Shown: piece after piece, positions 41,111 to 61,130 of the stretch
How positions within the stretch are numbered: position 1 is the stretch's first letter
Layout: every line of letters starts with the position of its first letter
From: an uncultured Gammaproteobacteria bacterium
GTDB lineage: Bacteria; Patescibacteriota; Microgenomatia; UBA12405
DNA: 64,000 nt
Assembly (NCBI GenBank): GCA_964408995.1
Contig: CAYPBP010000003.1
Location: forward strand, 14,803 to 78,802
Direction: 5' to 3'
The notes under the pieces: model-generated
What the model was told of the DNA's origin: nothing
What the model saw: the letters and a program-made list of their open reading frames with translations, nothing else
Databases searched by the model: none
Made by a program: the position numbers and the translations under genes

Positions 41111-41884
41111 ATGATGAAACTACTAAAAATCCTTCGACAAGCTCAGGATAAACAAAACGGCTTTACTCTGGTGGAGCTTTTAATTGTTATTGCTTTGATT
41201 GCAATTTTATCAGTTGCAGTTTTGGCAACTATCAATCCAATTGAGCAATCAAATAAAGCTCGAGATGCTAAATTCAAAAACGATGCGGCTGAAGTTTTAA
41301 ATGCTTATGAAAGATATTATGCTTCTCAGAATAATTATCCATGGAATGGAGCTACAGGTGAAAATAAAGCTCTAGAAGGTCAAGCAAATATAGCTTTTGT
41401 TTCAACAGATTTTAGATTTGGTGTTTTAACAGAAGATAATGATAATGGTTTATTAATTTCAACTTCTGAATTAAAAAGTTCATTTGCAGGAAAAGAACCT
41501 TTTGTTTTTGATGGTGATTCCGAAGTTGATCTTGAAAGTAATAATGCAATGTATGTTTTTAATGGTGATTCTACTTATGTTTGTTTTTGTCCAAAAGCTA
41601 AGGCGAATAGAGTTGATACTGTTGGTGCTAGTTTAAAATGTCTTAGGGATGTAAATATAAAAAATGGAGAATTATCTAATAATGCAAAGCTTTTTGATGT
41701 TGGTACTGATACTTGTGTACAAGCTGCATCACCAACAGATGTGAATAGTCCTAATTTTTGTAATCTAGATGACACTGATCATGTATATGCTAATATGATG
41801 TGTGTACCAGAAGGTAGGACAGGGGAGGCAGCAGCACCAACACCAGCAACACCAGCAACACCAGAAACACCAGCAACACCATAA
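41111..41884 (+). CDS. type IV pilin (probable major pilin) with 17-aa leader and Pro/Thr-rich C-terminal repeat
   Basis: MMKLLKILRQAQDKQNG|FTLVELLIVIALIAIL prepilin signal; C-terminal PTPATPATPETPATP. Confidence 0.85.
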   Translation: MMKLLKILRQAQDKQNGFTLVELLIVIALIAILSVAVLATINPIEQSNKARDAKFKNDAAEVLNAYERYYASQNNYPWNGATGENKALEGQANIAFVSTDFRFGVLTEDNDNGLLISTSELKSSFAGKEPFVFDGDSEVDLESNNAMYVFNGDSTYVCFCPKAKANRVDTVGASLKCLRDVNIKNGELSNNAKLFDVGTDTCVQAASPTDVNSPNFCNLDDTDHVYANMMCVPEGRTGEAAAPTPATPATPETPATP

Positions 41885-41922
41885 TAGTATTTCGTCTTTA
41901 ATTTTTAGAGAGATTTTTGAAA

Positions 41923-41958
41923 CCCCTCTTCGAATCAAATCGGAGAGGGGTTTTTTTT
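41923..41958 (+). terminator. intrinsic terminator after the major pilin gene
   Basis: cccctcttcgaatcaaatcggagagggg stem-loop followed by an 8-T run. Confidence 0.7.
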
Positions 41959-42262
41959 GAAACCCAATCTCCCTCTACCCCCTCTTTCATCCTTCGACAA
42001 GCTCAGGACAAGCGCGAGGGGGGGGAAATCAAAACCTCTCTGTTCCCCGCATCCGCGGGGAACATCTCCCCTTAAAAAAGGGAGGGGTTAAAATATGTTT
42101 CTAACTAAAACCAATTTGTTGTAGTTTTAATATCTATTTGATAGAATATCTTTGATCTTGATGATCTTAAATAAGCTAAATCCCTCCAGTTCTGTAATAG
42201 GACCTGGAGGTTTTTTTTGGCCATAGGCCAATCAGTCTTTGACTGATATTATTTAATTAACT

Positions 42263-42805
42263 ATGAAAAGAATTTTAACAATAATTGATGGGAGTAATTT
42301 TTATCATGGGAGTAAACGTCTTTGTCCAGAAGTTCATTTAACGAACTTTAAATATCGAGAATTGATTGAGGGAATGATTGGCCAAAAAAATATAACAATA
42401 TTATATTGCGTTGGAGAAATTAAAAGAGAAAATAATGATAAAAAATCTGAGTGGATGTATGCTCAGCAACAGTCTTTGTTTTACAATTTGGAGAAACAGA
42501 ATATCAGAATCTTTAAAGGTTTTATGTTAAAGAGTGATGGTAAATTTCACGAGAAAGGTGTTGATGTTCGAATTGCTGTGGAAGTTTTGAAGGGAGCATT
42601 AAAAGATGAATATGACAAATGTCTTTTATTTACTTCAGATACTGATATTATTCCAGCAATTATAGAAGCTATAAAAGTTAAAAAAGAAATAATTTATGCT
42701 GGATTTGAGAATAAACTGAGTAGAGCTATGATTAGAAATTGTTCGGATACATTGATAATAAAATCAAAATTAATTAGAAAAGTGAATAGATTTGATAAAA
42801 AATAA
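42263..42805 (+). CDS. NYN-domain (LabA-like) protein
   Basis: ILTIIDGSNFYHGS N-terminal NYN/PIN-like signature. Confidence 0.55.
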   Translation: MKRILTIIDGSNFYHGSKRLCPEVHLTNFKYRELIEGMIGQKNITILYCVGEIKRENNDKKSEWMYAQQQSLFYNLEKQNIRIFKGFMLKSDGKFHEKGVDVRIAVEVLKGALKDEYDKCLLFTSDTDIIPAIIEAIKVKKEIIYAGFENKLSRAMIRNCSDTLIIKSKLIRKVNRFDKK

Positions 42806-42808
42806 ATT

Positions 42809-43621
42809 ATGGATTTTTTTGTTTTATTTATTATTTTTGTTTTAGGGTTGTGTTTTGGAAGTTTTGTAAATATGCTTGTCTATCGAACTGCTGTGCGGTA
42901 CGAAATTTTTAATTCGAAATTTGAAATTTTAAAAAATAAAGAAAAAAGATCGTTTTGTGATTATTGTGGTAAGCAATTAAATTGGTATGAAAATATTCCA
43001 GTCTTTTCTTGGTTGATACAAAAAGGTAAAACTAGTTGCTGTCATAAAAAATTGCCAGTCTCCTACCCTGTTGTGGAATTATTAACTGGTTTTTTATTTT
43101 TAGTTTATGGAATAATAATGGCGCCCCGCGGAGGCGGGGCGCCATTACAAATGGGATTAGGTTTAATCATTATTATTTTGTTGGTATTTAGTGCAGTGTT
43201 CGATTGGAAATATATGATTTTGCCTGATTTTTCAACAGGAATATTAGTCTCTAGTGCGCTGGTACTTTGGTTCTCTAGATATTTTGGTGAATGGAATTAT
43301 TTATTGTCGGCATTAGTGGCCAGTGGATTTTTGTTAATTTTAAATTTGATTACCAAAGGTGAAGGAATGGGTATGGGAGATGTAAAGTTGGCTGTTTTTA
43401 TGGGGTTATTTTTGGGATATCCTAATATAATAGTGGCTTTTTATGTGGCTTTTATACTTGGAGCAATTGTGGGAATTATTTTAATGATTTTCAAAAAAGC
43501 CAAGAAAAAAAGCCAGATTCCATTTGGTCCTTTTTTGATTTTAGGAACATTGGTGGCATGGATTTTTGGAAATAATATTATTAATTTAGTATTTAAAACC
43601 TACCCCTTTCCCCTCCCTTAA
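42809..43621 (+). CDS. pilD: prepilin peptidase (A24 family) with an in-frame palindromic insertion (43120-43143)
   Basis: N-terminal Cys tetrad (CDYCG...SCCHK), catalytic Asp regions (DFSTGIL, GMGMGDVKLAVFMG); APRGGGAP encoded by ggcgccccgcggaggcggggcgcc. Confidence 0.85.
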   Translation: MDFFVLFIIFVLGLCFGSFVNMLVYRTAVRYEIFNSKFEILKNKEKRSFCDYCGKQLNWYENIPVFSWLIQKGKTSCCHKKLPVSYPVVELLTGFLFLVYGIIMAPRGGGAPLQMGLGLIIIILLVFSAVFDWKYMILPDFSTGILVSSALVLWFSRYFGEWNYLLSALVASGFLLILNLITKGEGMGMGDVKLAVFMGLFLGYPNIIVAFYVAFILGAIVGIILMIFKKAKKKSQIPFGPFLILGTLVAWIFGNNIINLVFKTYPFPLP

Positions 43622-43653
43622 AAAAGGAGGGGTAAAATAAGATAGAATTAATT

Positions 43654-44103
43654 ATGAAAAAGTCTGGTTTTACATTAGTTGAGATTTTGATAGTCATTAC
43701 TATAATTGCTATTTTTGGAGTGATGGCAATTGGGATTTTTAATGCTAGTGGAATACAAAATAAGGCTAGAGACGCTCAAAGGAAGAAAGATTTAAATAGA
43801 ATTAAAGTGGCTTTTGAAGAATACTTTAATGACAATGGAAGTTATCCTGATGGAATTACTGGTTGGAATATAAGGTCGAATTGCGGAAAAAGTATTTCGA
43901 GTTTTTCATATTTAAATCCTTGGCCTTGTGACCCAACTGGTCAACCTTATAAAATAATTGTTGAAATTAAACCTAACAGATTTATGGTTGGAGCTATGTT
44001 GGAATATAAAAAGGATAAAGATATTATTAATGGTACTGGACTTGGTGTTAATTATGGAGTGTCAAGCTCAAATATTTTATGGAATAAATTTAATGTTTAT
44101 TAA
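43654..44103 (+). CDS. type IV pilin-like protein (short leader)
   Basis: MKKSG|FTLVEILIVITIIAIF. Confidence 0.8.
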   Translation: MKKSGFTLVEILIVITIIAIFGVMAIGIFNASGIQNKARDAQRKKDLNRIKVAFEEYFNDNGSYPDGITGWNIRSNCGKSISSFSYLNPWPCDPTGQPYKIIVEIKPNRFMVGAMLEYKKDKDIINGTGLGVNYGVSSSNILWNKFNVY

Positions 44104-44113
44104 TATAAATAAT

Positions 44114-44623
44114 ATGAAAAAAATAAAAAAGATTCAAAATTCAAATCAAAACCCACCCACCCTGCGGGTACCCTCCCTTGAAAAGGGAGGGATAAATTTT
44201 ATTGAAATTTTAATAATAATAGTATCGGTGTTTGTTTTATCTTTTATAACTTACAAACAATTTGCTTTAGCAAAGGCAAAATCTAGAGATTTACAAAGAA
44301 GATCGGATTTACACGAATTTTCTAAAGTAATTAAAATGTACCAAGTCGATTATGGAAAGTTGCCTAGTGATGAATTGATCAATAGTCTTTGGGGAACAAA
44401 GTTTGTTGATATAGATTATGTTTATGCAGCTTCAGTACCAAAAGAAAAATATGGAAATAAAGAATATTGTTATCAAGCTTCAGCTGATGGATCTTATTTT
44501 AAGATGATGGCTGAGTTTGAAAATAAAAAAGATGAAGATTGTAAAAAAGAGGGACAGTTGTGCGGTGGGATTAAATATTGTTATACTGATATTGTCTATA
44601 TTAATCCTGAACAAGAGAATTAG
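44114..44623 (+). CDS. type IV pilin-like protein with extended leader containing a hairpin repeat
   Basis: MKKIKKIQNSNQNPPTLRVPSLEKGG|INFIEILIIIV; the leader is encoded by acccacccaccctgcgggtaccctcccttgaaaagggaggg; the track ORF 43958 start is spurious upstream extension. Confidence 0.7.
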   Translation: MKKIKKIQNSNQNPPTLRVPSLEKGGINFIEILIIIVSVFVLSFITYKQFALAKAKSRDLQRRSDLHEFSKVIKMYQVDYGKLPSDELINSLWGTKFVDIDYVYAASVPKEKYGNKEYCYQASADGSYFKMMAEFENKKDEDCKKEGQLCGGIKYCYTDIVYINPEQEN

Positions 44624-44661
44624 TTAGATAAATAGATAAGTAGTTTATTAGATAATTAGAA

Positions 44662-45108
44662 ATGATTAATAAAATTAAAAAAATCCTTCGACAAGCTCAG
44701 GACAGGGGTTTTACCTTGGTGGAGTTATTAGTGGTGATTTCTATTATTGCTGTTTTGGCGGCAGTATTAATGGCTAATTTTATGGGAGCTAGAGAGAGAG
44801 CTAGAGATGCTAAAAAAATTCAAGATTTATATGCTTTAAAAAGTGCTTTGAGAATGTATTATAACGACAATCAAAGATATCCTGGAGTATCTGATGATAC
44901 AAATTTTAATTTAACTGCTGATATTGGTTCTAGTTATATGACATCTATTGTTGGTATTGGTTATACGTATCAAAGAAAAAATAATGGAGATGGATTTCTT
45001 TTAAGAGTTGGTCTTGAATCTGGAGCTGGAAATGAAGATATTGAATCACAAGAAAAATGTGGTGTTACTTCTCCTGTTAATAAGATTTTTGCAGTATGCG
45101 CAAACTAA
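44662..45108 (+). CDS. type IV pilin-like protein
   Basis: MINKIKKILRQAQDRG|FTLVELLVVISIIAVL. Confidence 0.85.
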   Translation: MINKIKKILRQAQDRGFTLVELLVVISIIAVLAAVLMANFMGARERARDAKKIQDLYALKSALRMYYNDNQRYPGVSDDTNFNLTADIGSSYMTSIVGIGYTYQRKNNGDGFLLRVGLESGAGNEDIESQEKCGVTSPVNKIFAVCAN

Positions 45109-45154
45109 ATTAGATCGTCGATGATAGATCGTAGATCGTAGATAAAAAATAAAA

Positions 45155-45646
45155 ATGATTAAAAAAATTAAAAAAATCCTTCGACAAGCTCAGGACAGGG
45201 CTGGTTTTACGTTGGTGGAGTTACTAGTAGTGATTGCTATAATTTCGATTTTGACGGTTGTTTCATTGTCTTCTTATACTAGTGCTCAAATAAAAGCTAG
45301 AGATTCTCAAAGAAAATCGGATTTAGAAGCGGTGTCTAAGGCATTGATGATGTATTACAACGATGAGGGTAAATTTCCTGATTCTTTTACTTTTGGGGAT
45401 GAAAGTGTGGGTTTTACTGGTGCTGATGGTATTGTTTATATGAGGAAAACACCTATAGACCCAAAAGATAGTCCTCCTTATGTTTATATTTACAAACGTT
45501 CTCTTGATGAGAAATCGTTTAATCTTTTTGCTGATTTGGAAAATAAAAAAGATTTGCAATGTAAAACAACTCCTCTATGGAATGTAAATGGAAAAACTTA
45601 TTGTTACGGAATCTCAAGCCCAAACGCAACTGTCAAAAACTGGTGA
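45155..45646 (+). CDS. type IV pilin-like protein
   Basis: MIKKIKKILRQAQDRAG|FTLVELLVVIAIISIL. Confidence 0.85.
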   Translation: MIKKIKKILRQAQDRAGFTLVELLVVIAIISILTVVSLSSYTSAQIKARDSQRKSDLEAVSKALMMYYNDEGKFPDSFTFGDESVGFTGADGIVYMRKTPIDPKDSPPYVYIYKRSLDEKSFNLFADLENKKDLQCKTTPLWNVNGKTYCYGISSPNATVKNW

Positions 45647-45704
45647 TAAAATTTTAGTTTTTACAGATTAGATTTTTTATTTTTAAAATAATGTAGAATT
45701 AATT

Positions 45705-46142
45705 ATGAAAAAAAATAAAAATGTTTCGGGTTTTACTCTTTTTGAGCTTTTGGTGAGTATTTCTATTATTGGAATATTGACAGCCTTGGCGTCGGTGGCT
45801 TTTTCGGGAGCACAAAAAAAAGCTAGAGATGCTAGAAGAATGCAGGATGTAAGAGCAATTCAAACAGCGGCGGAACAGTTTTATTCACAAAGCCCTACAT
45901 ATTCTTATCCAACTGTTGGTTATACAGTTGGAACTGTTTGGGTTTCTGGAACTGGCACTACTGTTTTAGCAAGTTATCCAATTGATCCTAAAGGTGTTGA
46001 ATATAGTTGTAGTTCATGTACTTTAAGTAGTTATTGTGTTTGTACTGATACTGAAGATGATAGTAAAAATGCTAATTCTGGTAATAATTGTGATTTTTCA
46101 GCAGTAACAAAAACTCATTTTTGTGTTAAAAATCAACAATAA
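45705..46142 (+). CDS. type IV pilin-like protein
   Basis: MKKNKNVSG|FTLFELLVSISIIGIL. Confidence 0.8.
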   Translation: MKKNKNVSGFTLFELLVSISIIGILTALASVAFSGAQKKARDARRMQDVRAIQTAAEQFYSQSPTYSYPTVGYTVGTVWVSGTGTTVLASYPIDPKGVEYSCSSCTLSSYCVCTDTEDDSKNANSGNNCDFSAVTKTHFCVKNQQ

Positions 46143-46192
46143 TTTAAAACCTCTCTAAATCTCCCCTTAAAAAAGGGAGACTTTAAAAAAAT

Positions 46193-46687
46193 ATGAATAA
46201 TATAAATAAAATAAAACCACCCACAGCTAAAGCCCGCCTGCATCGACTGGATCGAAGACATTGCGGGCAGGCAGTTATGGCGGTCAGAGGATTTACATTA
46301 ATTGAGTTGATTGTGGCGGTGACAATTATTAGTATTTTAACTGTGGTGGGATTGGTTAGTTTTACTGGAACAAACAAAAAAGCTAGAGATAGTCGAAGAA
46401 TGGCTGATTTGGAGAATATTAGAATGGCATTGGAACTTTATCGACAAGGGACTGGAAATACATATCCAACTGCTAGTGCTTTGCCTAGTAGTTTGGTATC
46501 AACTTATATTGAAAAAATACCTGTAGGACCTAAAAATGAAAGTTATTCATATACTAAGATAACTGGTTATACCTATCGTATTTGTGCTCGCGTTGAGGAT
46601 GTGGGTTCTACTAGTGCTGATGTTAGTGGTTGTACAGTGGCATTACCTACTGGTTATGTTGGTTATTATAAGGTGACAAATCCATGA
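46193..46687 (+). CDS. type IV pilin-like protein with long hairpin-encoded leader (alternative start at Met 46250)
   Basis: MNNINKIKPPTAKARLHRLDRRHCGQAVMAVRG|FTLIELIVAVTIISIL. Confidence 0.7.
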   Translation: MNNINKIKPPTAKARLHRLDRRHCGQAVMAVRGFTLIELIVAVTIISILTVVGLVSFTGTNKKARDSRRMADLENIRMALELYRQGTGNTYPTASALPSSLVSTYIEKIPVGPKNESYSYTKITGYTYRICARVEDVGSTSADVSGCTVALPTGYVGYYKVTNP

Positions 46688-47193
46688 AAAATCAAAACCC
46701 TTTGGTACTTCGTACCACCTTTCCCTTGACAGGGCACTTTAATTCTAATTTTGGTTTTACTTTAATTGAATTGTTGGTGGCGATAACTATTGGATCGATT
46801 TTGATTGGTTTGGCTTCAGTATCTCTAAATGGATTTAATGAACAACAAAAAGTGAAAGCAGTCAAACAAGAAGTACTGTCTAATTTAAGATTGGCTAGAA
46901 ACTATGCCATTACTGGTCAGCTTCCAAACACGGCCAATAAGGTGGTAGTAACAATAAATAGTGAAGGTTTAATGGTGATAGGTTTTCAAAATGCTTCTAA
47001 TAATTCTGTTGGAACTCCTAAGTTTTCTAAAGATATTACTCCTAAGGGAGTTGGTGTTACTTTTAGTAATCAAGTTAAGTTTAGTGTGACTGATGGTCGA
47101 TCGATTCTTGGTAATATTTTAATTACTATTGCTGGAGGTGACTCGACAGAAGAAACAATTAATATTGAAGGATCAGGATTAATTTATGAATAA
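46684..47193 (+). CDS. pseudopilin (minor pilin) with hairpin-encoded leader
   Basis: MKNQNPLVLRTTFPLTGHFNSNFG|FTLIELLVAITIGS; ATGA overlap with the previous gene. Confidence 0.75.
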   Translation: MKNQNPLVLRTTFPLTGHFNSNFGFTLIELLVAITIGSILIGLASVSLNGFNEQQKVKAVKQEVLSNLRLARNYAITGQLPNTANKVVVTINSEGLMVIGFQNASNNSVGTPKFSKDITPKGVGVTFSNQVKFSVTDGRSILGNILITIAGGDSTEETINIEGSGLIYE

Positions 47194-47614
47194 TAGAAAA
47201 ACCCCTCTAAATCTCCCCTTGACAAGGGAGACTTTAAATCAAAATAGGAAATTAAATGGTCAAAGTTTGATTGATGTAATTTTTTCAATAGGAATATTGG
47301 TTTTGGTTTTGACTGGAGTTTTGGTTTTGATTGTTAGTACTGCTAAACTTAAAACAATAGATTCAAAAAGAAGTAAAGCAGTTGAAATGTCTCAAAGATT
47401 GATTGAACAAGAAATTAAAAAAGCAAAAGATAACCCTTCTCTTTTTTGGACATTTCCAAAACTTCCTTACTCTGCTTCAACTGGTGGTTATAATTATGTT
47501 ATTAATTATGATTGTAATAGTGATAAAAGTAAGTGTAATGGTGTTTTTACTATATCTTGGGGTGATGGTGAATCGTTATCAGTTGAAAGACTTTTTTTGA
47601 AAACTGGAATATAA
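47186..47614 (+). CDS. pseudopilin-like protein with hairpin-encoded leader
   Basis: MNNRKTPLNLPLTRETLNQNRKLNG|QSLIDVIFSIGILVLVL (Asp at +5). Confidence 0.6.
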   Translation: MNNRKTPLNLPLTRETLNQNRKLNGQSLIDVIFSIGILVLVLTGVLVLIVSTAKLKTIDSKRSKAVEMSQRLIEQEIKKAKDNPSLFWTFPKLPYSASTGGYNYVINYDCNSDKSKCNGVFTISWGDGESLSVERLFLKTGI

Positions 47615-47665
47615 ATTAGATTATTAGATAAATAGATAAATAGATAAATAGATAAATAGATAAAT

Positions 47666-48238
47666 ATGAAAAAAAATAAAAAAAATTCAATCTCCCTAAA
47701 TCCCTCTTTCACAAGAGGGACTTGTAAACAGAAAGGTTTTACTTTGATTGAGATTTTGGTGGTGGTGGCGGTGGTAGGATTTATTGTGCTATCGATAAGT
47801 AGATTAATGTCTGGGGTTTTTAGTTCTCAAAATAAAAATAAAGCAATAGATAAAATTGATCAAAGTGGAAGTTGGGTTTTAAATGAACTAAAAAAGAATA
47901 TTTTAAATGCCAATAGTGATGGAGGAAATTTTATTTGTCCATCAAGTGGGATTGGAACGTCAATTTCAATAATTAGTAATAAAGATTTACAAGAAACTAT
48001 ACTTTCTTGTAGTGGTAATAAAATTTCTTCTTATTCGGCTACAAGAAAGGAGACCATAGTTCTTTTTGAAAAAAATAATGATTTAGAGTTGGTCAATTGT
48101 AGTGGTTTTATAAGATGCGAAGTCCCCTATTCTAAATTATCGAGTGTTAGATTTACTTTTACCCTAAAGGCGGGAGTTAGTACTTTATCAAGTGGAACAA
48201 CCAGACCTTTTTTAATGGATGTAGTATTGAGGGATTGA
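47666..48238 (+). CDS. pseudopilin-like protein with hairpin-encoded leader
   Basis: MKKNKKNSISLNPSFTRGTCKQKG|FTLIEILVVVAVVGFIV. Confidence 0.75.
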   Translation: MKKNKKNSISLNPSFTRGTCKQKGFTLIEILVVVAVVGFIVLSISRLMSGVFSSQNKNKAIDKIDQSGSWVLNELKKNILNANSDGGNFICPSSGIGTSISIISNKDLQETILSCSGNKISSYSATRKETIVLFEKNNDLELVNCSGFIRCEVPYSKLSSVRFTFTLKAGVSTLSSGTTRPFLMDVVLRD

Positions 48239-48240
48239 GA

Positions 48241-48505
48241 AATCCAATCTTCCCCTTTTTGATTCAATCTCCTCTTGTCCCGACAAGTCGGGACTTTCCC
48301 CTCTTTAACACGAGGGGAGATATAATTTAACTTTTCAATCTTCCCCTTTTTGATTCAATCTCCTCTTGTTGGCAAAGCCAATTTTCCCCTCTTTAACACG
48401 AGGGGAGATATAAATTATATTTTCAATCTTCCCCCTTTTTGATTCAATCTCCTCTTGTTGGCAAAGCCAACTTTCCCCTCTTTAACACGAGGGGAGATAT
48501 AATTT
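48241..48505. repeat. three tandem copies of an ~88-bp compound-hairpin unit (fourth partial copy at 56846-56908)
   Basis: Unit = tcaatcttcccctttttgattcaatctcctcttg + (gtcccgacaagtcgggac | ttggcaaagccaa) + ttttcccctctttaacacgaggggagatataa, contiguous with no spacers. Confidence 0.85.
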
Positions 48506-48509
48506 TTTA

Positions 48510-48905: not shown

Positions 48906-49001
48906 AAGAGGGGTTAGGGGGAGATTGGAATGATGGTTGTTGTTTTTTTTGATTTAAGATATATAATCCTCTTTAGATTATAGGTTATTTAAAAAATTAA
49001 A

Positions 49002-49907
49002 ATGAGTGCTAAAGAAAGAATTATTGCTGGAGTTATGACAGGTGCAATGGCTTTTACCATGGCTAGTTGCCAGATTGAAGGACAAGAACCAACAAATGTT
49101 AATACTACTTCTATTTCAACAGAAACTACTACAAATCCTGATTTAAAGGATGTGGCGCCAGAGAGATTGGAATTTACTAAGGATTTTTTAAATCTTTATG
49201 ATGAAAGTTCTAAAAGTGGTCATCCTGGTTTTGATAAAATTAAAGATTTTATTAGCCGAGACCAAATTATTAAATATGGCGAAACCGGAGAAACAGGTCA
49301 AAATTTATCGATAATTAAACATAATGATGGAAGTCCTGCTATAGCTTTGGTTAATTGTAGCGATAATGTGACCAATGTTTTTAAAGATATGGTTAATAAT
49401 ATGAGTGAATATGATGAAGATTTTCTTAAAATAATAACTGACAATGGTATGGTGGCTTTTATGGTTAATAGATTCCTTGATGAGGGTAATACTTTTTTCT
49501 TTAATAAGAGTGGATTAGTGGTTTCGAACTTAAAAGACCAAAATACTAAATATTTAGCTTTAGAAAGACCAGTATTGACTGAAAGTTTTGGAATTAAAAT
49601 GCATCAGATAGGTGGTGATTATAAAAAATATGCTGGTTTTATTAAAGAGCAACTATCAAGTGATTGTTGGTGGAATTTATATAAAAAAAATGGACAAAAA
49701 TTTTGTCAAGTGAATTCAGCTACTAGTTATATGGTGGCTAAAGATTTTTATGGTAAATGGTATGCTCCAGAATCTTTAAAGGATGAAAAAATACAAAATT
49801 TAATTAATGAAGCTAGAAAATTGGTTTCGCTTTTTGGGGGTAATGAAGGAGAAATTTTGAAAAATGTTGAAGATAGACCTGACTTCACTGGTGAAGAAAA
49901 TTTTTAG
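49002..49907 (+). CDS. putative lipoprotein, hypothetical
   Basis: Signal peptide ending in lipobox-like TMASC. Confidence 0.45.
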   Translation: MSAKERIIAGVMTGAMAFTMASCQIEGQEPTNVNTTSISTETTTNPDLKDVAPERLEFTKDFLNLYDESSKSGHPGFDKIKDFISRDQIIKYGETGETGQNLSIIKHNDGSPAIALVNCSDNVTNVFKDMVNNMSEYDEDFLKIITDNGMVAFMVNRFLDEGNTFFFNKSGLVVSNLKDQNTKYLALERPVLTESFGIKMHQIGGDYKKYAGFIKEQLSSDCWWNLYKKNGQKFCQVNSATSYMVAKDFYGKWYAPESLKDEKIQNLINEARKLVSLFGGNEGEILKNVEDRPDFTGEENF

Positions 49908-49950
49908 AAAATAGTTGATTTTTTCTGTTGATAGTATATAGTTTTACTAA

Positions 49951-51120
49951 ATGAATGAATCTGGTAAAAAATTTGATTGGGGTTTATGGTTGTCTTTGGT
50001 GGTGATTGTTGGTGGAATAGTTTTTTTAGTTTTCATGGGATTTAAACTTGGTATTTTTAGTAAATTTTTGAACAATTCTACAAAGCAGAATGATGTTACC
50101 ACATTGGAAACAAAATATTGTGCTTATGCCAAAAAAACTTTAGATTGGATGGATAAGAAAAGAACAGCAGATGGAAAATATGCTTTTTCTGTTGGTTGTG
50201 ATAAGGAAAAAAAAGAATGTGCTAGGTTGATTGGAATTGGACCAGTTGGACACAACGACTTGCCAATTTTGTGGTCTAGGTATAAATATTTTCTGAAAAC
50301 AAAAGATCAAAGCCAACTTTTGGTTATTAAAAAAGATATTGATATTTATTTTAAACAATTAGATTTAATGCCAATCAAAAATCTTTTTTGGAATTGTCGA
50401 ATTTTGACTGAAATGAGAGATGAAAAAATATTAGGAGTTGATTATGTTAAAAAATTAGATAGTCTTTGCAAAACTAGTCAGTATCTAGATACTGACAATG
50501 TGGTAACTGGTAATAATGAACAAAAAAAGGTAATTGTAGATTTACCTTATCTTGATGGAGGGGTTTTGTCTAATAAAGATTTAGATAAATTTAAAAAAGA
50601 TAAAAAGATTGATGGTAAATATTTTTTTCATGTGACTTATCCTAGTGACTTTGTGGCTAGATACAAAACTTGGGGTGATAAAATTGATTTGGATTTGGCT
50701 AATGCTTATTTTAATAAATTAATGATTGAATATTATTTAGGTCCTAAATATTTTTTGCCACAAGATAAATGTTTGCTAGCAATTTCTTCACTAGATTTAT
50801 ATTCAGTAAATAAAGATGAAAGATATTTGTTTTGGGCTAAAAGGATCCATCAGTATTTTTTTAAAGATATAATTGAACAAGATGCAAAAATCCCAGAATG
50901 TGCTTTGTTAAATAGAGAATTGAGTAGATATGATAGTAGCAAAGATTATAAAATAATCCAAAACCAACTGTTAGATTTTTTTATTGATAATTATTGGGAT
51001 GGAGATGATGGTAAAAATAAAATAAGTGGTGATAATGGTTTTTTTCAAATTATTAAAAACTTTGTTCCACAAAAATATTTTAAAGAAAATGCTTTAATAG
51101 TTAATCTTTTATGTCCATAA
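49951..51120 (+). CDS. membrane-anchored hypothetical protein
   Basis: Single N-terminal TM; no motif recognised. Confidence 0.35.
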   Translation: MNESGKKFDWGLWLSLVVIVGGIVFLVFMGFKLGIFSKFLNNSTKQNDVTTLETKYCAYAKKTLDWMDKKRTADGKYAFSVGCDKEKKECARLIGIGPVGHNDLPILWSRYKYFLKTKDQSQLLVIKKDIDIYFKQLDLMPIKNLFWNCRILTEMRDEKILGVDYVKKLDSLCKTSQYLDTDNVVTGNNEQKKVIVDLPYLDGGVLSNKDLDKFKKDKKIDGKYFFHVTYPSDFVARYKTWGDKIDLDLANAYFNKLMIEYYLGPKYFLPQDKCLLAISSLDLYSVNKDERYLFWAKRIHQYFFKDIIEQDAKIPECALLNRELSRYDSSKDYKIIQNQLLDFFIDNYWDGDDGKNKISGDNGFFQIIKNFVPQKYFKENALIVNLLCP

Positions 51121-53615
51121 TTTTTCGAATTTTTATTGTTTTAGTTTTATTTTTAAATAGTTATAAATCTGTTATGGCTGTTGATAATTGTCAGAATTAT
51201 AGTAGCTTTAGACAATGTGTTATGGATGCAAGTTCTTGTCTAGGTTCTTGGTTTCCTGCTGGTTACAGTGATTACTGTAATAGCCATTTTTATCCTTATT
51301 CGTATTGTTGTAAAAAGGCTGATCCTCCTACTCCTACTCCTACTACTCCTACTACTCCTACTTGTTCTTCTTTAGGTGGAAGTTGTGTTAACGGTGATGG
51401 TAGTGTCTATTGTACTGGTAATGGTGGAAGTATAATAACAGGGTCGTGTTCAAGTGGTACTACTTGTTGTGACTTTTCGCAACGTACCGCTGAATGTTAT
51501 TATGACTCAGAGTGTCCTGGTGATTGTGGAAAATGTATTAAGCCTACTAGTGATCCTTATGATAATTACTGTGGAACTGAATCACCTCAAAAGGGTTGGG
51601 ATGCTATTTGTGGAACATCAAATGGTGGATCAAGTTGTTCTGCTCCAACAAGTAATAGATGTCCTTATGGAAATTTAGTCTGGATAGATAAGGTTGGTAG
51701 TGATGGTACTTTTAATTGGAGATGTGAAGGCGGTGATGGAATTTGTGGTGGAAACGCTGGAAATACTGCTTATTGTTCTTCTTATAAAATTCCCTCTTCA
51801 ATTGGTGCTAGTGGACAATGTGGTTATCCGGTTGGTGTTAATGAATGTTTTGATAGTAGGACATATCCAACTTGTAAAAATGGAAATTTAAATATCATTG
51901 ATGATGGTTCTAGTGGCGACAATTGGGTTGATTGGACTTGTTCTGGAACTGCTGGTGATTGTGGAGGAGGTAATGGAGCGACTGTTGGTTGTTCTCACCA
52001 TGTGGCATATACAGTTAATGGTGCTTGTCTTAATAATGGTGGTTGGTTTGAAGGTCAACCTCCTAACCCTTGTTCTACTGGTACTGTTACTTGGATCGAT
52101 AGTAATGCTAACCCAACAGATTATACTTATGATTGGAGTTGTAATGGTGTTTGTGGTGGAAGTAGTCCTACTTGTTATTCTCATAAAAATACTAGACCAA
52201 TTTTTCAAAATATAGCAATTAAAAATACAAGTGGAGTTAGTGTTGGTAGTGAACTGTATCAAAGTAACTACTATAATCATATTTGTGAAACAGGTTTTGG
52301 TGGAACTACAGCCAGATTTGAAGTTACTTATACTGATGCTGAAGCTGGTGGTTATCGTGGTAGTGATATTGATTGGATCAAATTACAAATTGGATCAGAA
52401 GAGTTTACTACTACTAATTATTCACGTTCTGGTCAAAATACTACAGCTATCTTTGATATTAATTTATCTCAAGTTTCTGCGCGTGATGTCCAACGTATTT
52501 GGGTTAAGGCTAAGGGTTATAATTTACCCGAGAATGGTCATATTGGAACTAATAGATATTTCAAGTTTTGGGATTGTAAGGTGGCAGTGACTGGGTCTAT
52601 TTATGACAGTAGTGGTGTTGATCCTATTAAATGTAACGTATATCCCTATCCAGGTTTTACTAAACTAATTACTTCGGCTGCTAATTTTAGAAGTTTGAGT
52701 TTTAATTCTTCTAGTGGTAATAAGGCAATGTCTGTTAGTTTTCCAAGTCCAAATTATTCCAGTGGTAGTAATAAATTGGTTTGGGGTGAAACTTACACTA
52801 GCTATTCATTCAATAGTAGTGATATATTGATGGAAGTTGACCCTAATTTTATGCACTTTAGAAGAAATGGGACATCTTGTATAGGCCCTATTTTTGAATT
52901 AAATAGAGCAAATGTTGATCCTTATGTTTCGTCAGTAGGAATTACTATTGATTTTACTGGAGTGGTTGATCAGGATCCATGGTGGAGAGTTGAAAATGGT
53001 GGAGTTTCTAGTAATATTAGAATTAATAACCGAGTACCAGTGACTTGTACGAGCAATTGTAAGGCTAGTACCACTGGTTTAGTTTCGTCTGTAAGTATTA
53101 ACAATACTGGTCGTAGTAATGATTCAGCTTTTTCTTGGCATTATAAAGGCGTAGAGGCAAAATTGGCTAATACTAATTATGGTTATGACTATTTTTATAA
53201 TAATTATTTTGTTAAAAATGGAATTGGATTGATGGCTGATAGTATGAGTGAAATTGGAACTAGTGGTGTATATTTTGTTGATGATAATTTGAATATTAAT
53301 AGTAATAATGCTATTGCTTCTAATAAATCTTTGATGATTGTTGTTAATGGTGATATTAATGTTTCGAAGGATGTTACTCAGGTTAATGGCATTTTGGTGG
53401 CTAAAAATATTGGGGCTACTGGTCTAAATAACAGTCCTTTAGTTTTTAATGGTAGTCTTTATGCTGAGAATACTATTGATTTGTCTCGCGGTTTTAAAAC
53501 CAAAAGAAATAATAATCTTAATCCAGCCGTTAGAGTTGTTTATAATCCAGCAATGATTTTCAAGCTACCACCTGAGACATCAAAAATTTTAACTAATTAT
53601 AAATGGGGAAACTAA
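51111..53615 (+). CDS. large secreted Cys-rich protein with internal repeat modules; candidate pilus-associated adhesin
   Basis: Signal peptide; PPTPTPTTPTTPT linker; three W..(D/W)..C.G..G.CGG modules; embedded in the pilus locus; internal opposite/alternate-frame ORFs in the track are spurious. Confidence 0.5.
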   Translation: MSIIFRIFIVLVLFLNSYKSVMAVDNCQNYSSFRQCVMDASSCLGSWFPAGYSDYCNSHFYPYSYCCKKADPPTPTPTTPTTPTCSSLGGSCVNGDGSVYCTGNGGSIITGSCSSGTTCCDFSQRTAECYYDSECPGDCGKCIKPTSDPYDNYCGTESPQKGWDAICGTSNGGSSCSAPTSNRCPYGNLVWIDKVGSDGTFNWRCEGGDGICGGNAGNTAYCSSYKIPSSIGASGQCGYPVGVNECFDSRTYPTCKNGNLNIIDDGSSGDNWVDWTCSGTAGDCGGGNGATVGCSHHVAYTVNGACLNNGGWFEGQPPNPCSTGTVTWIDSNANPTDYTYDWSCNGVCGGSSPTCYSHKNTRPIFQNIAIKNTSGVSVGSELYQSNYYNHICETGFGGTTARFEVTYTDAEAGGYRGSDIDWIKLQIGSEEFTTTNYSRSGQNTTAIFDINLSQVSARDVQRIWVKAKGYNLPENGHIGTNRYFKFWDCKVAVTGSIYDSSGVDPIKCNVYPYPGFTKLITSAANFRSLSFNSSSGNKAMSVSFPSPNYSSGSNKLVWGETYTSYSFNSSDILMEVDPNFMHFRRNGTSCIGPIFELNRANVDPYVSSVGITIDFTGVVDQDPWWRVENGGVSSNIRINNRVPVTCTSNCKASTTGLVSSVSINNTGRSNDSAFSWHYKGVEAKLANTNYGYDYFYNNYFVKNGIGLMADSMSEIGTSGVYFVDDNLNINSNNAIASNKSLMIVVNGDINVSKDVTQVNGILVAKNIGATGLNNSPLVFNGSLYAENTIDLSRGFKTKRNNNLNPAVRVVYNPAMIFKLPPETSKILTNYKWGN

Positions 53616-53660
53616 ATTAGGTCGTAGATCTTAGATCGTCGATCGTAGAAAAATAAAAAA

Positions 53661-54470
53661 ATGAAAAATAAAAAAACAAACCCTCTGTCCCGACAAGTCG
53701 GGACATCTCCCTTGACAGGGCGAATTAATTCTAAAAGTGGGCAGGTGGCAGTTATTGTTTTGTTAGTTTCAGCAGTGGTTTTGACACTTGGATTATCTAC
53801 TTCTCGTAAATCAATTACTGATATTAAAGTCAATACTGATGAAGAATCATTAAAGAATGCTTTTAACATGGCTGAATCGGCTATTAATAACTATCTTGAC
53901 AGTGGTAGTCAAGTTTATACTGGCTCTGGTGATAATTATAGTGGTAATGTCACTAAAACAAATATAGGAGGTGCTAATAGTTTATCTTCTGAAGGTTTGG
54001 TTTCGCCCAACTCAAGTCAATTATTTTGGTTGGTTAACCATAATGCAAATGGTAGTATAGGGACTACTTATTATTCAGGAAATATTAATTCTATAAGTTC
54101 TAGTGAAAATAACGTGGCCTTAAAAATCGATTATTTTTATATTCAAGGTGGTGCTTATAAGGTTGATAGATATGCTTGCCAATATTTTGGTTTTAGTTCT
54201 ACTAAATCTTTAGGTTTCGATAGTCCTTGTTCTTCTTTTTCTCTAAATTATGTAAGTGGTAAAAAATCTTTATTACTTTCAATTACTCCTATTGGGTTGG
54301 CTACTAAATTAACTTTAAATGGAAGTTCTCCTTTTCCAGTTCAAGGAGAAGAATTGACTTCTGTGGGTACTGCTAATAATGGAGTTAAAACTCAAATTAA
54401 AGCTAGAAATTTGTATCAGATCCCTTCTTTTTTGACAGAAGCGGTGGTGGCTAGAAACATTATTAAGTAA
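53661..54470 (+). CDS. pilin-like / pilus-associated protein with hairpin-encoded leader
   Basis: MKNKKTNPLSRQVGTSPLTGRINSKSG|QVAVIVLLVSAVVL hydrophobic pilin-like N-terminus (no Glu at +5). Confidence 0.55.
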   Translation: MKNKKTNPLSRQVGTSPLTGRINSKSGQVAVIVLLVSAVVLTLGLSTSRKSITDIKVNTDEESLKNAFNMAESAINNYLDSGSQVYTGSGDNYSGNVTKTNIGGANSLSSEGLVSPNSSQLFWLVNHNANGSIGTTYYSGNINSISSSENNVALKIDYFYIQGGAYKVDRYACQYFGFSSTKSLGFDSPCSSFSLNYVSGKKSLLLSITPIGLATKLTLNGSSPFPVQGEELTSVGTANNGVKTQIKARNLYQIPSFLTEAVVARNIIK

Positions 54471-60919: not shown

Positions 60920-60968
60920 AAAAACCCTTTGGTACTTCGTACCACCTTTCCCTTGACAGGGCACTTTT
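60920..60968. repeat. hairpin repeat near-identical to the one in the pilin leader at 46695-46740
   Basis: aaaccctttggtacttcgtaccacctttcccttgacagggcactt present at both loci. Confidence 0.85.
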
Positions 60969-61130
60969 CTTTTTAGTTTTCGGGTTTAGTTTGGGTCAAC
61001 ATATTTTGTTTTTATGTTATGATTAGTTTATGAGAATTAAAGGTAAAACAATTCAAAAAACTATTTTAATAGTTGCCATGGTGGCATTGTTGATGTCTAG
61101 CTTAATAGCTCCTTTAATGGTTTTAATAAG

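What the first reader, a model, noticed from the sequence alone, without database searches (positions are those of the whole stretch)
41111..54470. Eleven pilin/pseudopilin paralogs whose prepilin leader peptides are built from hairpin repeats
The locus carries 11 genes with a G|FTL(I/V)EL class III signal. Only two have the canonical short leader (MKKSG|F at 43654 and MKKNKNVSG|F at 45705). The others have 14-35-aa leaders, and the extra leader sequence is encoded by members of the same GC-rich hairpin families found intergenically. Examples are 44151-44193, 46232-46274, 46695-46740, 47197-47240, 47685-47725 and 53678-53726; the last contains gtcccgacaagtcgggac, which also occurs in the 48241 tandem array. 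The 46695 element recurs almost verbatim in the recG/PBP intergenic region (60920-60968). Leaders are removed by PilD, so they may be a permissive landing site. Alternatively, the mRNA hairpins placed just 3' of the start codon could regulate translation of individual pilins.
Basis: partly seen in the sequence, partly recalled or inferred. Interest (0 to 1): 0.85.

Follow-up and report, generated by a model that had tools for sequence, protein, structure and literature searches.

The report
Palindromic repeats inside prepilin leader peptides
In this tiny-genome (CPR, Shapirobacteria-like) bacterium, short GC-rich repeats that litter the DNA between genes have also landed, in frame, inside the throw-away leader peptides of nine of eleven pilus-subunit genes; this is a striking new setting for a known kind of selfish DNA rather than a new kind of system.

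Summary
The locus is a type IV pilus cluster (PilB/T/C, PilD, PilM/N/O) with 11 pilin-like genes. Eight are canonical and three are atypical. Two have short leaders and nine have 16-33 aa leaders.

In all nine, the extra codons match repeat modules found between genes in the same window (for example 45/45 nt identical between 46696-46740 and 60923-60967). Six of the inserts fold as hairpins. The three 'LRQAQD' inserts do not.

Syntenic clusters in related Shapirobacteria genomes carry 4-10 aa Lys/Asn-rich leaders at the same genes. The same ATG and both flanks align around the insert. The inserts are therefore lineage-specific, lie inside the ancestral leader and must be translated. Only gene 46193 has a possible downstream ATG.

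Related genomes carry other repeat modules in other pilin leaders, roughly in step with their local density of GC-rich palindromes. The same kinds of repeat also sit in frame in Pth, LigA, LspA and PilD.

Best reading: REP/RPE-like selfish palindromes survive where the protein tolerates them, and the cytoplasmic, cleaved leader tolerates them about as well as non-coding DNA. A regulatory role for the mRNA hairpins is not excluded, and cleavage by PilD is untested. I class it as a new variant of a known kind, of moderate interest.

The parts
41111..41884 (+). Probable major pilin (group A). Leader MMKLLKILRQAQDKQNG|FTLVELL (17 aa). Repeat module at 41129-41148.
   Evidence: Pfam N_methyl. The module is 20/20 nt identical to intergenic 41989-42008. 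Orthologs have 10-aa leaders. A promoter-like site at 41050-41078 has hexamers that also appear in the L001 ortholog upstream sequence (read). Strong hairpins followed by T-runs lie downstream.
43654..44103 (+). Pilin (group B) with a short leader, MKKSG|F. No insert. Internal control.
44114..44623 (+). Atypical pseudopilin (group C). Leader MKKIKKIQNSNQNPPTLRVPSLEKGG|INFIEIL. Double-hairpin insert at about 44150-44191; the 3' arm (GGA GGG) encodes Gly-2 and Gly-1.
   Evidence: Fold -19.9 kcal/mol. Orthologs in L004 and L006 read MKKG|F; those in L001, L002 and L008 lack the Gly. The same peptide module occurs in P0061 and P0014.
44662..45108 (+). Pilin (group D). Leader MINKIKKILRQAQDRG|F. 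Non-hairpin repeat module at 44683-44704.
   Evidence: 22/22 nt identical to 41989-42010. Fold -2.5 kcal/mol, z +0.9.
45155..45646 (+). Pilin (group E). Leader MIKKIKKILRQAQDRAG|F. Module at 45176-45197.
   Evidence: Among 113 homologs the modal leader is 9-12 aa.
45705..46142 (+). Pilin (group F) with a short leader, MKKNKNVSG|F. No insert here, but its orthologs in L001, L003, L004 and L008 do carry inserts.
46193..46687 (+). Pilin (group G). 33-aa leader with a long imperfect hairpin insert at about 46217-46274. A second in-frame ATG at 46277 would give the leader MAVRG.
   Evidence: Fold -26.5 kcal/mol, with the 46277 AUG inside the paired region. The upstream ATG and its hairpin context are homologous to the starts in L001, L003 and L008.
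46684..47193 (+). Minor pilin (group H). Leader MKNQNPLVLRTTFPLTGHFNSNFG|F. 45-nt insert at 46696-46740.
   Evidence: 45/45 nt identical to 60923-60967. The L001 ortholog leader, MKNKKNNFG, is 15 codons shorter and aligns on both flanks.
47186..47614 (+). Pilin-like protein (group I), G|QSLIDVI. Leader MNNRKTPLNLPLTRETLNQNRKLNG. Insert at about 47198-47238 or slightly beyond.
   Evidence: 90% identity over 42 nt to intergenic 46146-46187. The L001 ortholog reads MNNNKG with the same start context. The peptide PLNLPLTRETL recurs in other genomes' group E and group C pilins.
47666..48238 (+). Minor pilin (group J). Leader MKKNKKNSISLNPSFTRGTCKQKG|F. Hairpin insert at about 47687-47726.
   Evidence: 18/18 nt identical to 48895-48912. 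Fold -11.3 kcal/mol. Orthologs have 4-9 aa leaders.
53661..54470 (+). Atypical pilin-like protein (group K), G|QVAVIVLL, no Glu5. Leader MKNKKTNPLSRQVGTSPLTGRINSKSG. Composite double-hairpin insert at about 53679-53724.
   Evidence: 19/19 nt to 48276-48294 and 23/24 nt to 33851-33874. Fold -21.2 kcal/mol. The L003 ortholog leader reads M(EM)VINKNNKG. The same composite peptide occurs in P0084.
42809..43621 (+). Prepilin peptidase PilD. It carries a 14-bp-stem palindrome at 43116-43147 in a variable loop, and its C-terminus is extended by a hairpin at 43603-43632.
   Evidence: Pfam A24_N_bact plus Peptidase_A24. In the alignment D132 and D191 are invariant, the loop varies in length, and the window protein runs 8-9 aa beyond its orthologs. 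Hairpins.
41960..42090 (+). Intergenic mosaic of repeat modules. The LRQAQD module is nested in the loop of a CCCCCTC/GAGGGGG hairpin, followed by a variable hairpin plus the ATCTCCCCTT...AAGGGAGGGG core.
   Evidence: Sequence; matches.
46146..46187 (+). Intergenic core hairpin directly upstream of gene 46193. The same position is occupied in L001, L003 and L008.
48245..48502 (+). Tandem array of 2.9 copies of an 89-nt composite unit (variable hairpin plus TCCCCTCTTTAACACGAGGGGA). The first unit holds GTCCCGACAAGTCGGGAC, which is shared with the leader of 53661.
   Evidence: TRF; repeats.
60921..60979 (+). Intergenic copy of the element found in the leader of 46684.
33824..33874 (-). In-frame composite palindrome inside NAD-dependent DNA ligase (aa about 183-200, including KGDVPPAAAGGTED). 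It has the same architecture as the leader insert of 53661, on the opposite strand. A second, GTAG-tagged palindrome lies at 33687-33721.
32074..32103 (-). GTAG-tagged palindrome (GTAGAGACGCCAGATCTGGCGTCTCTAC) in frame inside peptidyl-tRNA hydrolase. It adds 9 aa.
   Evidence: A 9-residue gap against PDB 3nea; translation.
8679..8763 (+). 85-nt GC-rich element in frame inside a probable signal peptidase II, identified from my reading of its motifs only (peptide KEWGGPAKSFAHRQRCSLGGQAFRRAG).
   Evidence: The related peptide GHAKSFAFRRAG forms a pilin leader in P0089.

Best explanation
The inserts are copies of short, GC-rich, mostly palindromic repeat modules of the REP / small-MITE type. They behave like Rickettsia palindromic elements. 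They proliferate in this AT-rich (about 31% GC), gene-dense genome and persist only where they do no harm.

Shown:
- The modules occur between genes, at gene ends, in a few protein loops and, at about the same density as in intergenic DNA, inside the leader-coding part of the prepilin genes.
- The inserts lie inside the ancestral Lys/Asn-rich leader, downstream of the ancestral ATG and upstream of Gly-1.
- They keep the reading frame, contain no stop codon, and are absent from orthologs in related genomes.

Inferred:
- The ribosome translates through the insert.
- The enlarged leader stays in the cytoplasm and is cut off by PilD, so the mature pilin is unchanged and the insertion is close to neutral.
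- The A-rich DNA of the leader (AAA/AAT codons) resembles the A-rich sites next to which intergenic copies sit (AAAA|CC...), so leaders may also present the preferred target.
- Each hairpin starts at least 19 nt after the AUG, leaving the unstructured A-rich start region free. This probably matters in a genome whose start codons show no enrichment for Shine-Dalgarno pairing.
For: Insertion inside the leader. Window and L001 align on both sides of the insert for genes 46684, 47186 and 47666, with the same ATG context. Leader lengths in seven syntenic loci (L001-L006, L008) are mostly 4-10 aa.

Lineage-specific and recurrent. Inserts are in 9 genes in the window, 4 each in L001 and L003, 3 in L008, about 1 each in L004 and L005, and none in L002 or L006. 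They sit in different paralogs and use different modules. For the six loci nearest the window in GC content the counts rise with the local density of GC-rich palindromes: 0.06-0.11/kb in the loci with no inserts, 0.31/kb in L004, and 0.46-0.54/kb in L001 and L003. L005 does not fit (0.48/kb but about one insert, at 40% GC), and L008 was not measured.

One pilin across many genomes. Of 113 homologs of the group E pilin, the modal leader is 9-12 aa, and about 20 carry long leaders built from the same peptide modules.

Same families as extragenic copies. 45/45, 22/22, 19/19 and 18/18 nt identities and 90% over 42 nt.

Same behaviour elsewhere in proteins. Pth has a clean 9-aa insertion. LigA, LspA and a PilD loop and its C-terminus also carry in-frame palindromes.

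Density. 6/kb in leaders, 2.2/kb intergenic, 0.14/kb in other coding DNA.

No alternative start. There is no in-frame ATG or GTG after the insert except at 46277; the only other candidates are TTG codons inside the insert in 46684, 47186 and 53661.

PilD is intact.

Literature. Natural leaders of 6-26 aa are processed, the leader is cytoplasmic, and Gly-1 is the critical residue (PMC4471445). In-frame palindromic repeats are known in Rickettsia (PMC10969869). Intragenic REPs, including ones at N-termini and in DNA ligase, are known (PMC3733652).
Against: - No experiment shows that the long leaders are translated or cleaved.
- Leaders of 24-33 aa exceed those documented for type IVa-like pilins (up to about 18 aa, PMC4471445).
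- I found no mobilising enzyme, and no target-site duplication or terminal inverted repeat could be established, so 'mobile' rests on copy identity and presence/absence patterns.
- In the window/L001/L003/L008 subclade, gene D carries an insert in 4 of 4 genomes, and genes C, E and F each in 3 of 4. This could mean positive selection for a structured or long leader rather than mere tolerance.
- The core hairpin upstream of gene 46193 holds its position in four genomes.
- Hairpin modules with a TTGACA loop are read almost always in one of their two open frames (my own count). Simple neutrality does not explain this.
Confidence: 0.7

Rival explanations
1. The hairpins are kept because they act in the mRNA. 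Placed just inside each cistron of a long pilin operon, they would set translation rate, block exonucleases or direct processing, and so tune the ratio of major to minor pilins. The leader is simply where such a signal can be encoded without changing the mature protein.
For: Six inserts form stable stem-loops. All of them start at least 19 nt after the AUG, so they would not block initiation. Some paralogs carry an insert in nearly every genome of the subclade, although with different modules. The intergenic core hairpin upstream of 46193 is retained at the same position in four genomes. The core arms resemble SD and anti-SD sequences (CTCCCC / GGGGAG). REPs are known to stabilise upstream mRNA (established knowledge; discussed in PMC3733652).
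Against: Three of the nine inserts, including the one in the probable major pilin, do not fold. Orthologs in L002 and L006 run the same gene set with no inserts at all. The module type at a given gene differs between genomes. The same modules sit in Pth, LigA and LspA, where no such role is apparent. Start codons in this genome show no enrichment for SD pairing, which weakens the SD/anti-SD idea. Only one leader hairpin scores as terminator-like, and weakly.
Confidence: 0.15
2. The long leaders are an annotation illusion. Translation starts downstream of the hairpins, which would then be 5'-UTR or intercistronic elements.
For: Gene 46193 has an in-frame ATG at 46277 that would give a normal 5-aa leader, MAVRG. 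REPs at predicted N-termini are often extragenic through misannotation (PMC3733652). TTG codons occur in frame inside the inserts of 46684, 47186 and 53661.
Against: Eight of the nine genes have no ATG or GTG between the insert and Gly-1. A prepilin needs a leader ending in Gly, so a start after the insert is not available. The upstream ATG with its Lys/Asn codons is homologous to the start of insert-free orthologs. The TTGs lie within the inserted element, three of the four in hairpin loops. The 46277 AUG is inside the predicted stem. All inserts are in frame and free of stop codons.
Confidence: 0.07
3. The insert-bearing pilin genes are decaying. The long leaders block membrane insertion or cleavage, and the genes are on their way to loss.
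For: Group C orthologs in L001, L002 and L008 have lost the Gly-1. CPR genomes are reductive (established knowledge).
Against: All eleven ORFs are full length, syntenic and 45-60% identical to their orthologs, with intact hydrophobic helices. Every insert preserves the frame. The probable major pilin is also affected, and it keeps a promoter-like site and terminator-like hairpins.
Confidence: 0.05

Closest known systems
Rickettsia palindromic elements (RPEs; Ogata et al. 2000 and 2002, as summarised in PMC10969869)
   Same: Palindromic repeats in a reduced, AT-rich genome. They insert in frame into many unrelated protein-coding genes, are translated, and are tolerated because they fall in permissive parts of the protein. 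The same families also occur between genes.
   Different: RPEs are about 100-150 bp and are described from Rickettsia. The elements here are 20-60 nt modules, often mosaics of two small hairpins, in a CPR bacterium. Most in-frame copies in this window sit in one class of site, the cleaved prepilin leader, a site those sources do not mention.
Intragenic REPs (GTAG- and CGTC-tagged palindromes; Di Nocera et al. 2013, PMC3733652) and REP mosaics (BIMEs, from my own knowledge)
   Same: 20-40 bp GC-rich stem-loop repeats, mostly extragenic and often clustered or combined. Some lie inside genes, including DNA ligase and ORF N-termini. The Pth and LigA palindromes here carry the GTAG...CTAC tag.
   Different: The leader modules lack the GTAG or CGTC tag. 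No RAYT transposase was identified. In that paper N-terminal REPs were mostly put down to misannotated starts. Here the need for a leader ending in Gly-1, and the lack of a downstream ATG or GVG start, make translation of the repeat hard to avoid.
GC-cluster and 'byp' hairpin elements of yeast mitochondrial genomes (from my own knowledge, not checked here)
   Same: GC-rich hairpin elements spreading in a very AT-rich genome and landing inside coding sequences.
   Different: Byp elements are skipped by the ribosome and need not be in frame. All inserts here are in frame and stop-free, which points to ordinary translation.
Naturally long prepilin leaders (type IVb pilins, Flp; 15-30 aa; PMC4471445)
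   Same: They show that prepilin peptidases can process leaders as long as those seen here, and that leader sequence is only loosely constrained apart from Gly-1.
   Different: Those leaders are family traits. Here the length comes from recent, lineage-specific repeat insertions into pilins whose orthologs have 4-10 aa leaders.

Membership tests
Type IV pilin / class III signal peptide | Hydrophilic leader ending in Gly, followed by about 20 hydrophobic residues with Glu at +5. | tested here: met
   Met for 8 genes (G|F[TS]L.E). 44114 reads G|INFIE. 47186 has Asp5, where its orthologs have Glu5. 53661 has no acidic residue at +5.
Type IV pilin / class III signal peptide | Match to the N-terminal methylation motif model above its curated cut-off (Pfam PF07963 / TIGR02532). 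| tested here: met
   8 of 11 pass. 44114, 47186 and 53661 do not.
Type IV pilin / class III signal peptide | Encoded alongside a prepilin peptidase and the pilus assembly machinery. | tested here: met
   PilD, PilC (T2SSF) and PilM have Pfam hits. The neighbours I labelled PilB/PilT and PilN/PilO have syntenic relatives in the other loci, but I did not test those four family names.
Type IV pilin / class III signal peptide | Leader actually removed by the prepilin peptidase. | not testable with these tools
   Needs biochemistry or proteomics.
REP elements (GTAG/CGTC-tagged; PMC3733652) | Short (20-40 bp) GC-rich palindrome present in many dispersed, mainly extragenic copies. | tested here: met
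   29 perfect GC-rich hairpins against about 2 in shuffles, 17 of them intergenic. Families. Three of the nine leader inserts are not palindromic.
REP elements (GTAG/CGTC-tagged; PMC3733652) | GTAG or CGTC tetranucleotide tag at one end of the palindrome. | tested here: not met
   The leader modules begin GTCCCG, TCTCCC, CCCTCC or GGTAC. Only the Pth and LigA palindromes (32074-32103, 33687-33721) carry GTAG...CTAC.
REP elements (GTAG/CGTC-tagged; PMC3733652) | Association with a RAYT (IS200-like tyrosine transposase). | not tested
   Only 20 ORFs of the window (the pilus locus plus LigA) were scanned against Pfam, and none was a transposase. The rest of the genome is not in the window.
Rickettsia palindromic elements | In-frame insertion of a palindromic repeat into conserved protein-coding genes, with insert-free homologs elsewhere. 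| tested here: met
   Pilin leaders, Pth, LigA.
Rickettsia palindromic elements | Element of about 100-150 bp belonging to the described RPE families of Rickettsia. | tested here: not met
   The inserts are 20-69 nt and the host is a Shapirobacteria-like CPR genome. Sequence similarity to RPE families was not examined.
MITE | Terminal inverted repeats and a target-site duplication. | tested here: inconclusive
   Copies are bracketed by A-runs on the left (AAAA|CC) and CTTTAAA-like sequence on the right. The two identical 45-nt copies share no clear duplication beyond A/T runs.
Intrinsic terminator | GC-rich stem-loop followed directly by a U-run. | tested here: not met
   Among the six hairpin-type leader inserts, the scan flags two stems (44171-44191 and 46703-46717) and only the first has a T-rich tail, interrupted. 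It also flags a weak 5-bp stem at 45187-45202, in a leader whose insert does not fold. Strong hairpins followed by T-runs do exist after gene 41111, at about 41918-41958 and 42183-42215.

The most novel reading that the evidence does not exclude
The leader-embedded hairpins have been co-opted. Each pilin cistron would carry its own exchangeable RNA stem-loop just inside the coding region, setting its translation or transcript stability and hence pilus subunit stoichiometry. The cleaved leader would serve as the one place in a gene-dense CPR genome where such cis-regulatory RNA can be written into coding sequence at no cost to the protein. A weaker version: the repeats actively target prepilin 5' ends rather than merely surviving there.
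Probability: 0.12. Interest if true: 0.75.

Novelty: new variant of a known kind. Interest (0 to 1): 0.55.

Why it matters
It gives a clean natural example of where selfish DNA can persist in a streamlined genome that has about 12% non-coding DNA. A peptide that is made and then thrown away behaves like intergenic space.

Because a prepilin needs a leader ending in Gly-1, these cases supply unusually strong internal evidence that N-terminal repeat insertions are translated rather than misannotated. The literature on intragenic REPs left that point open.

There are practical consequences. Gene callers and pilin classifiers that rely on leader length will mislabel CPR pilins. These natural variants also say how much leader length and sequence a prepilin peptidase tolerates.

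If the hairpins proved to be regulatory, it would be a new way of tuning pilus composition in organisms whose pili are thought to be central to attaching to a host.

Tried and rejected
- Shine-Dalgarno check of the starts. It was uninformative. Annotated starts in this window pair with the anti-SD no better than random positions (median -0.1 against -2.1 kcal/mol), so I judged starts by orthology instead.
- Exact look-up of two window proteins in the contig collection found nothing, although an identical protein exists in the protein database (P0001, NCBI, 96.5-kb contig). The source genome is therefore identified only by its relatives (Candidatus Shapirobacteria).
- Rfam. Only two tRNAs in the window, and nothing at the repeats or at the widespread 17-mer.
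- Metagenome scan for CCTTCGACAAGCTCAGG. It returned 134 matches in 120 loci, and none sat in front of a pilin motif. The LRQAQD leader is therefore a local use of a very widespread motif, not a general pilin feature.
- Intrinsic-terminator reading of the leader hairpins. The T-runs are poor.
- Programmed frameshifting (A-run plus downstream hairpin). Rejected by inspection: the spacing is wrong and a shift would abort the pilin.
- Ribosomal bypassing as in 'byp' elements. Rejected, because every insert is in frame and stop-free.
- TIGR-like guide array for 48245-48502. Only 2.9 units, built from the same hairpin modules, so I treat it as a repeat cluster.
- Target-site duplication for the 45-nt element. 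Not resolvable.
- The PilD palindrome as a net insertion. The loop is only 1-3 aa longer than in L001, L002 and L004, and L001 has a different palindrome at the same spot. Its origin is unclear.

Full report
**What is there**

The window is AT-rich (about 30-34% GC). Its closest relatives around the prepilin peptidase gene are metagenome-assembled genomes, most of them labelled Candidatus Shapirobacteria, of the Candidate Phyla Radiation (PilD 55-67% identical for six loci and 34% for the seventh).

Positions 36965-56842 form a type IV pilus locus. PilC (T2SSF), PilD (A24_N_bact plus Peptidase_A24) and PilM are supported by Pfam hits. I labelled the neighbouring ORFs PilB/PilT and PilN/PilO without testing those names; they have syntenic relatives in the other loci.

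Eleven pilin-like ORFs start at 41111, 43654, 44114, 44662, 45155, 45705, 46193, 46684, 47186, 47666 and 53661.
- Eight pass the Pfam N_methyl model.
- 44114 (G|INFIEIL) has only sub-threshold GspG-like matches.
- 47186 (G|QSLIDVI) has Asp where its orthologs in L002, L003 and L005 have Glu5.
- 53661 (G|QVAVIVLL) matches nothing.

**Leaders**

Two genes have short leaders: MKKSG and MKKNKNVSG. The other nine have 16-33 residues.

In every long leader the extra codons correspond to a GC-rich segment that recurs outside the leaders:
- 46696-46740 is 45/45 nt identical to intergenic 60923-60967.
- The 'LRQAQD' segment of 41111, 44662 and 45155 is 20-22 nt identical to 41989-42010.
- 47198-47238 is 90% identical over 42 nt to 46146-46187.
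- 47702-47719 equals 48895-48912.
- The 53661 insert combines a hairpin identical to 48276-48294 with a second hairpin that is 23/24 identical to 33851-33874. That last copy lies inside the DNA ligase gene.
- The insert of 44114 matches only weakly (19/21 nt, E 0.04).
- The insert of 46193 matches only through its two stem arms (3353-3391).

Perfect GC-rich hairpins are far more frequent than chance: 29 in the window against about 2 in shuffles.

**Are they hairpins?**

Six of them are. Predicted energies are -19.9 kcal/mol (44114), -26.5 (46193) and -21.2 (53661), and about -10 to -11 for 46684, 47186 and 47666.

The three LRQAQD leaders are not hairpins (-2.5 to -6 kcal/mol, no better than shuffles). 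That module is a 17-22 nt motif. In its intergenic copy it sits in the loop of another hairpin.

The modules look combinatorial. A core hairpin, (A/T)TCTCCC(C)TT-loop-AAGGG(A)G, is often preceded by a second, variable GC-rich hairpin (GTCCCGAC.., GTTCCCCGC.., GTCCCTCCCGC.., GTTGGC..). The whole is usually entered from an A-run (AAAA|CC).

**Are the inserts inside the coding leader?**

Syntenic clusters in L001-L006 and L008 contain the same paralogs in the same order. Their leaders are mostly 4-10 residues, rich in Lys and Asn.

For genes 46684, 47186 and 47666, the window and L001 align on both sides of the insert:
- The ATG context is the same (for example caggattaatttATGaataat against caggtttaatttATGaacaat).
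- The first codons are the same.
- The last few codons before GGT-TTT are the same.

For 46684 the length difference from L001 is exactly 15 codons. That equals the 45-nt block shared with the intergenic copy.

No in-frame ATG or GTG lies between the insert and Gly-1 in eight of the nine genes. The only other candidates are TTG codons inside the inserted element (46684, 47186, 53661; three of the four in hairpin loops).

Gene 46193 has an ATG at 46277 that would give the leader MAVRG. That AUG lies inside the predicted stem. The upstream ATG is the one homologous to the starts in L001, L003 and L008.

A Shine-Dalgarno test could not help. Start codons in this window show no enrichment for SD pairing.

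A prepilin requires a leader ending in Gly (PMC4471445), and all nine inserts are in frame and stop-free. The simplest conclusion is that they are translated.

**Distribution in relatives**

Inserts are lineage-specific and recurrent.

| Genome | Pilin genes with a leader insert |
|---|---|
| Window | 9 |
| L001 | 4 |
| L003 | 4 |
| L008 | 3 |
| L004 | 1 |
| L005 | 1-2 |
| L002 | 0 |
| L006 | 0 |

They fall in different paralogs and use different modules. The short-leader gene 45705 of the window has insert-bearing orthologs in L001, L003, L004 and L008.

For most loci the counts rise with the local density of GC-rich palindromes: 0.06-0.11/kb in the two insert-free loci, 0.31/kb in L004, and 0.46-0.54/kb in L001 and L003. 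L005 does not fit, with 0.48/kb but only one or two inserts, in a locus of higher GC content. L008 was not measured.

Among 113 database homologs of one pilin (group E), the modal leader is 9-12 residues. About twenty have long leaders built from the same peptide modules seen in the window's other pilins: PLNLPLTRETL, NPPTLRxPSLEKGG, LRQAQD/GER and NPLSRQVGTSPLTGR.

**Not only pilins**

The same kinds of palindrome sit in frame in other genes:
- Peptidyl-tRNA hydrolase: a clean 9-residue insertion against PDB 3nea.
- NAD-dependent DNA ligase: two sites. My reading of the alignment is that KGDVPPAAAGGTED lies just before the conserved NxRNAxxG motif.
- A probable signal peptidase II, which I identified only by reading its motifs.
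- PilD: a variable loop, where L001 has a different palindrome at the same place, and the C-terminus, which a hairpin extends by 8-9 residues.

Perfect-hairpin density is 6/kb in leaders, 2.2/kb in intergenic DNA and 0.14/kb in the remaining coding sequence. With only four perfect hairpins in the leaders, the leader and intergenic densities are not significantly different by my own Poisson estimate.

**Mechanism**

I think these are REP/small-MITE-like selfish palindromes that behave like Rickettsia palindromic elements (PMC10969869) and like the intragenic REPs described earlier, which included copies in DNA ligase and at ORF N-termini (PMC3733652).

They persist where they are harmless. The prepilin leader is cytoplasmic, unstructured and loosely constrained apart from Gly-1, and the peptidase removes it (PMC4471445). 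It therefore tolerates insertions about as well as non-coding DNA does.

Its AAA/AAT-rich DNA also resembles the A-rich junctions next to which other copies sit. All the hairpins begin at least 19 nt after the AUG, so the unstructured start region is untouched.

- Shown: the repeat identity, the position inside the ancestral leader, frame preservation, lineage specificity, and the in-frame copies in other genes.
- Inferred: translation through the insert, cleavage by PilD, near-neutrality, and mobility. I found no transposase and no target-site duplication.

**Rivals**

*A regulatory role for the mRNA hairpins* is not excluded. In its favour, some paralogs carry an insert in nearly every genome of the subclade, and the core hairpin upstream of 46193 is positionally retained in four genomes. 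Against it:
- Three inserts do not fold.
- Two relatives have no inserts at all.
- Module types turn over between genomes.
- Terminator-like features are weak.

*Downstream starts* remain plausible only for 46193.

*Pseudogenisation* is unlikely, given full-length, syntenic and conserved ORFs.

**Verdict**

The finding is a new variant of a known phenomenon. Neither the two repeat papers I consulted nor two literature searches combining CPR bacteria with palindromic repeats or prepilin leaders turned up a report of repeats in a prepilin leader peptide or in CPR genomes, though the library does not cover subscription journals. It is moderately interesting, chiefly as a clean example of selfish DNA hiding in a disposable peptide and as a caution for pilin annotation.

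Noticed in passing
window 41129-41148, 41989-42010, 44683-44704, 45176-45197; loci L009-L128: The 17-mer CCTTCGACAAGCTCAGG (read as LRQAQ in the leaders) is extremely widespread. An exact-match scan of metagenome contigs hit its 120-locus limit, with loci from 33% to 68% GC. In about 31% of matches the flanks add 3 or more base pairs, against about 5% expected, so the motif is often the loop of a hairpin with variable stems. It has no Rfam family, and no paper in the library contains the string.
   Followed up: partly
window 31700-32260 (-), 32431-34422 (-), 8590-8935 (+), 42809-43621 (+): In-frame GC-rich palindromes inside housekeeping genes: Pth (9-aa insertion), LigA (two sites), a probable LspA (27 aa, identified only by reading its motifs), and PilD (a loop palindrome with a 14-bp stem, plus a C-terminal extension encoded by a hairpin arm). 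The Pth palindrome and one of the LigA palindromes are GTAG-tagged, like classical REPs.
   Followed up: partly
window 48245-48502 and 56816-56904: An 89-nt composite unit repeated 2.9 times directly upstream of a DUF559 (Vsr-like endonuclease) gene at 48510-48905, with another hairpin across that gene's stop codon. A related single unit follows the ORF I labelled PilO (56072-56842).
   Followed up: partly
window 42263-42805, 48510-48905; L008 6044-6328: Small nuclease-type genes sit inside the pilus locus next to repeat clusters and are absent from the same positions in relatives. They are an NYN-domain gene between the major pilin and PilD, and a DUF559 gene after pilin 47666. L008 has a GIY-YIG gene after the equivalent pilin. 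Whether any of them mobilises the repeats is unknown.
   Followed up: no
window 44624-44660, 45111-45143, 47611-47666, 53618-53649 (also 38692-38763): Short AT-rich tandem repeats rich in stop codons (TTAGATAA, TAGATCG, ATAAATAG; 4-7 copies) fill the spacers just upstream of several pilin genes. L003 has a similar tract (ttagagcgttagagcg...) upstream of its group E gene. Their function is unknown.
   Followed up: no
whole window: Annotated start codons show no enrichment for Shine-Dalgarno pairing (median -0.1 kcal/mol, against -2.1 at random positions). This suggests largely SD-independent initiation in this genome.
   Followed up: partly
window 44114-44623; L001 3744-4211; L002 11453-11911; L008 2096-2527: The group C pseudopilin has lost the Gly-1 in L001, L002 and L008 (for example MKKKNLIFEIL). 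In the window the Gly-Gly before INFIEIL is encoded by the 3' arm of the inserted hairpin. Whether this protein is processed at all is unclear.
   Followed up: partly
pilin leaders in window, L001, L003, L008 and proteins P0017, P0021, P0028, P0084: Core hairpins with a TTGACA loop have two open frames (LPLTRE-type and PLDKG-type). In leaders they are read almost always in the LPLT frame, roughly 12 to 1 by my count, and the events are not all independent. This is unexplained.
   Followed up: no
window 41050-41078, 41918-41958, 42183-42215, 41838-41881: The probable major pilin gene 41111 has an 11/12 sigma-70-like promoter match whose hexamers also appear in the L001 ortholog's upstream sequence, two strong hairpins followed by T-runs downstream, and a C-terminal PTPATPATPETPATP tail encoded by a 9-nt tandem repeat.
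   Followed up: no
window 51111-53615: An 834-aa Cys-rich protein with a TPTPTTPTTPT linker lies inside the pilus locus, with partial relatives in L001 and L005. It has only a faint DUF7305 hit.
   Followed up: no
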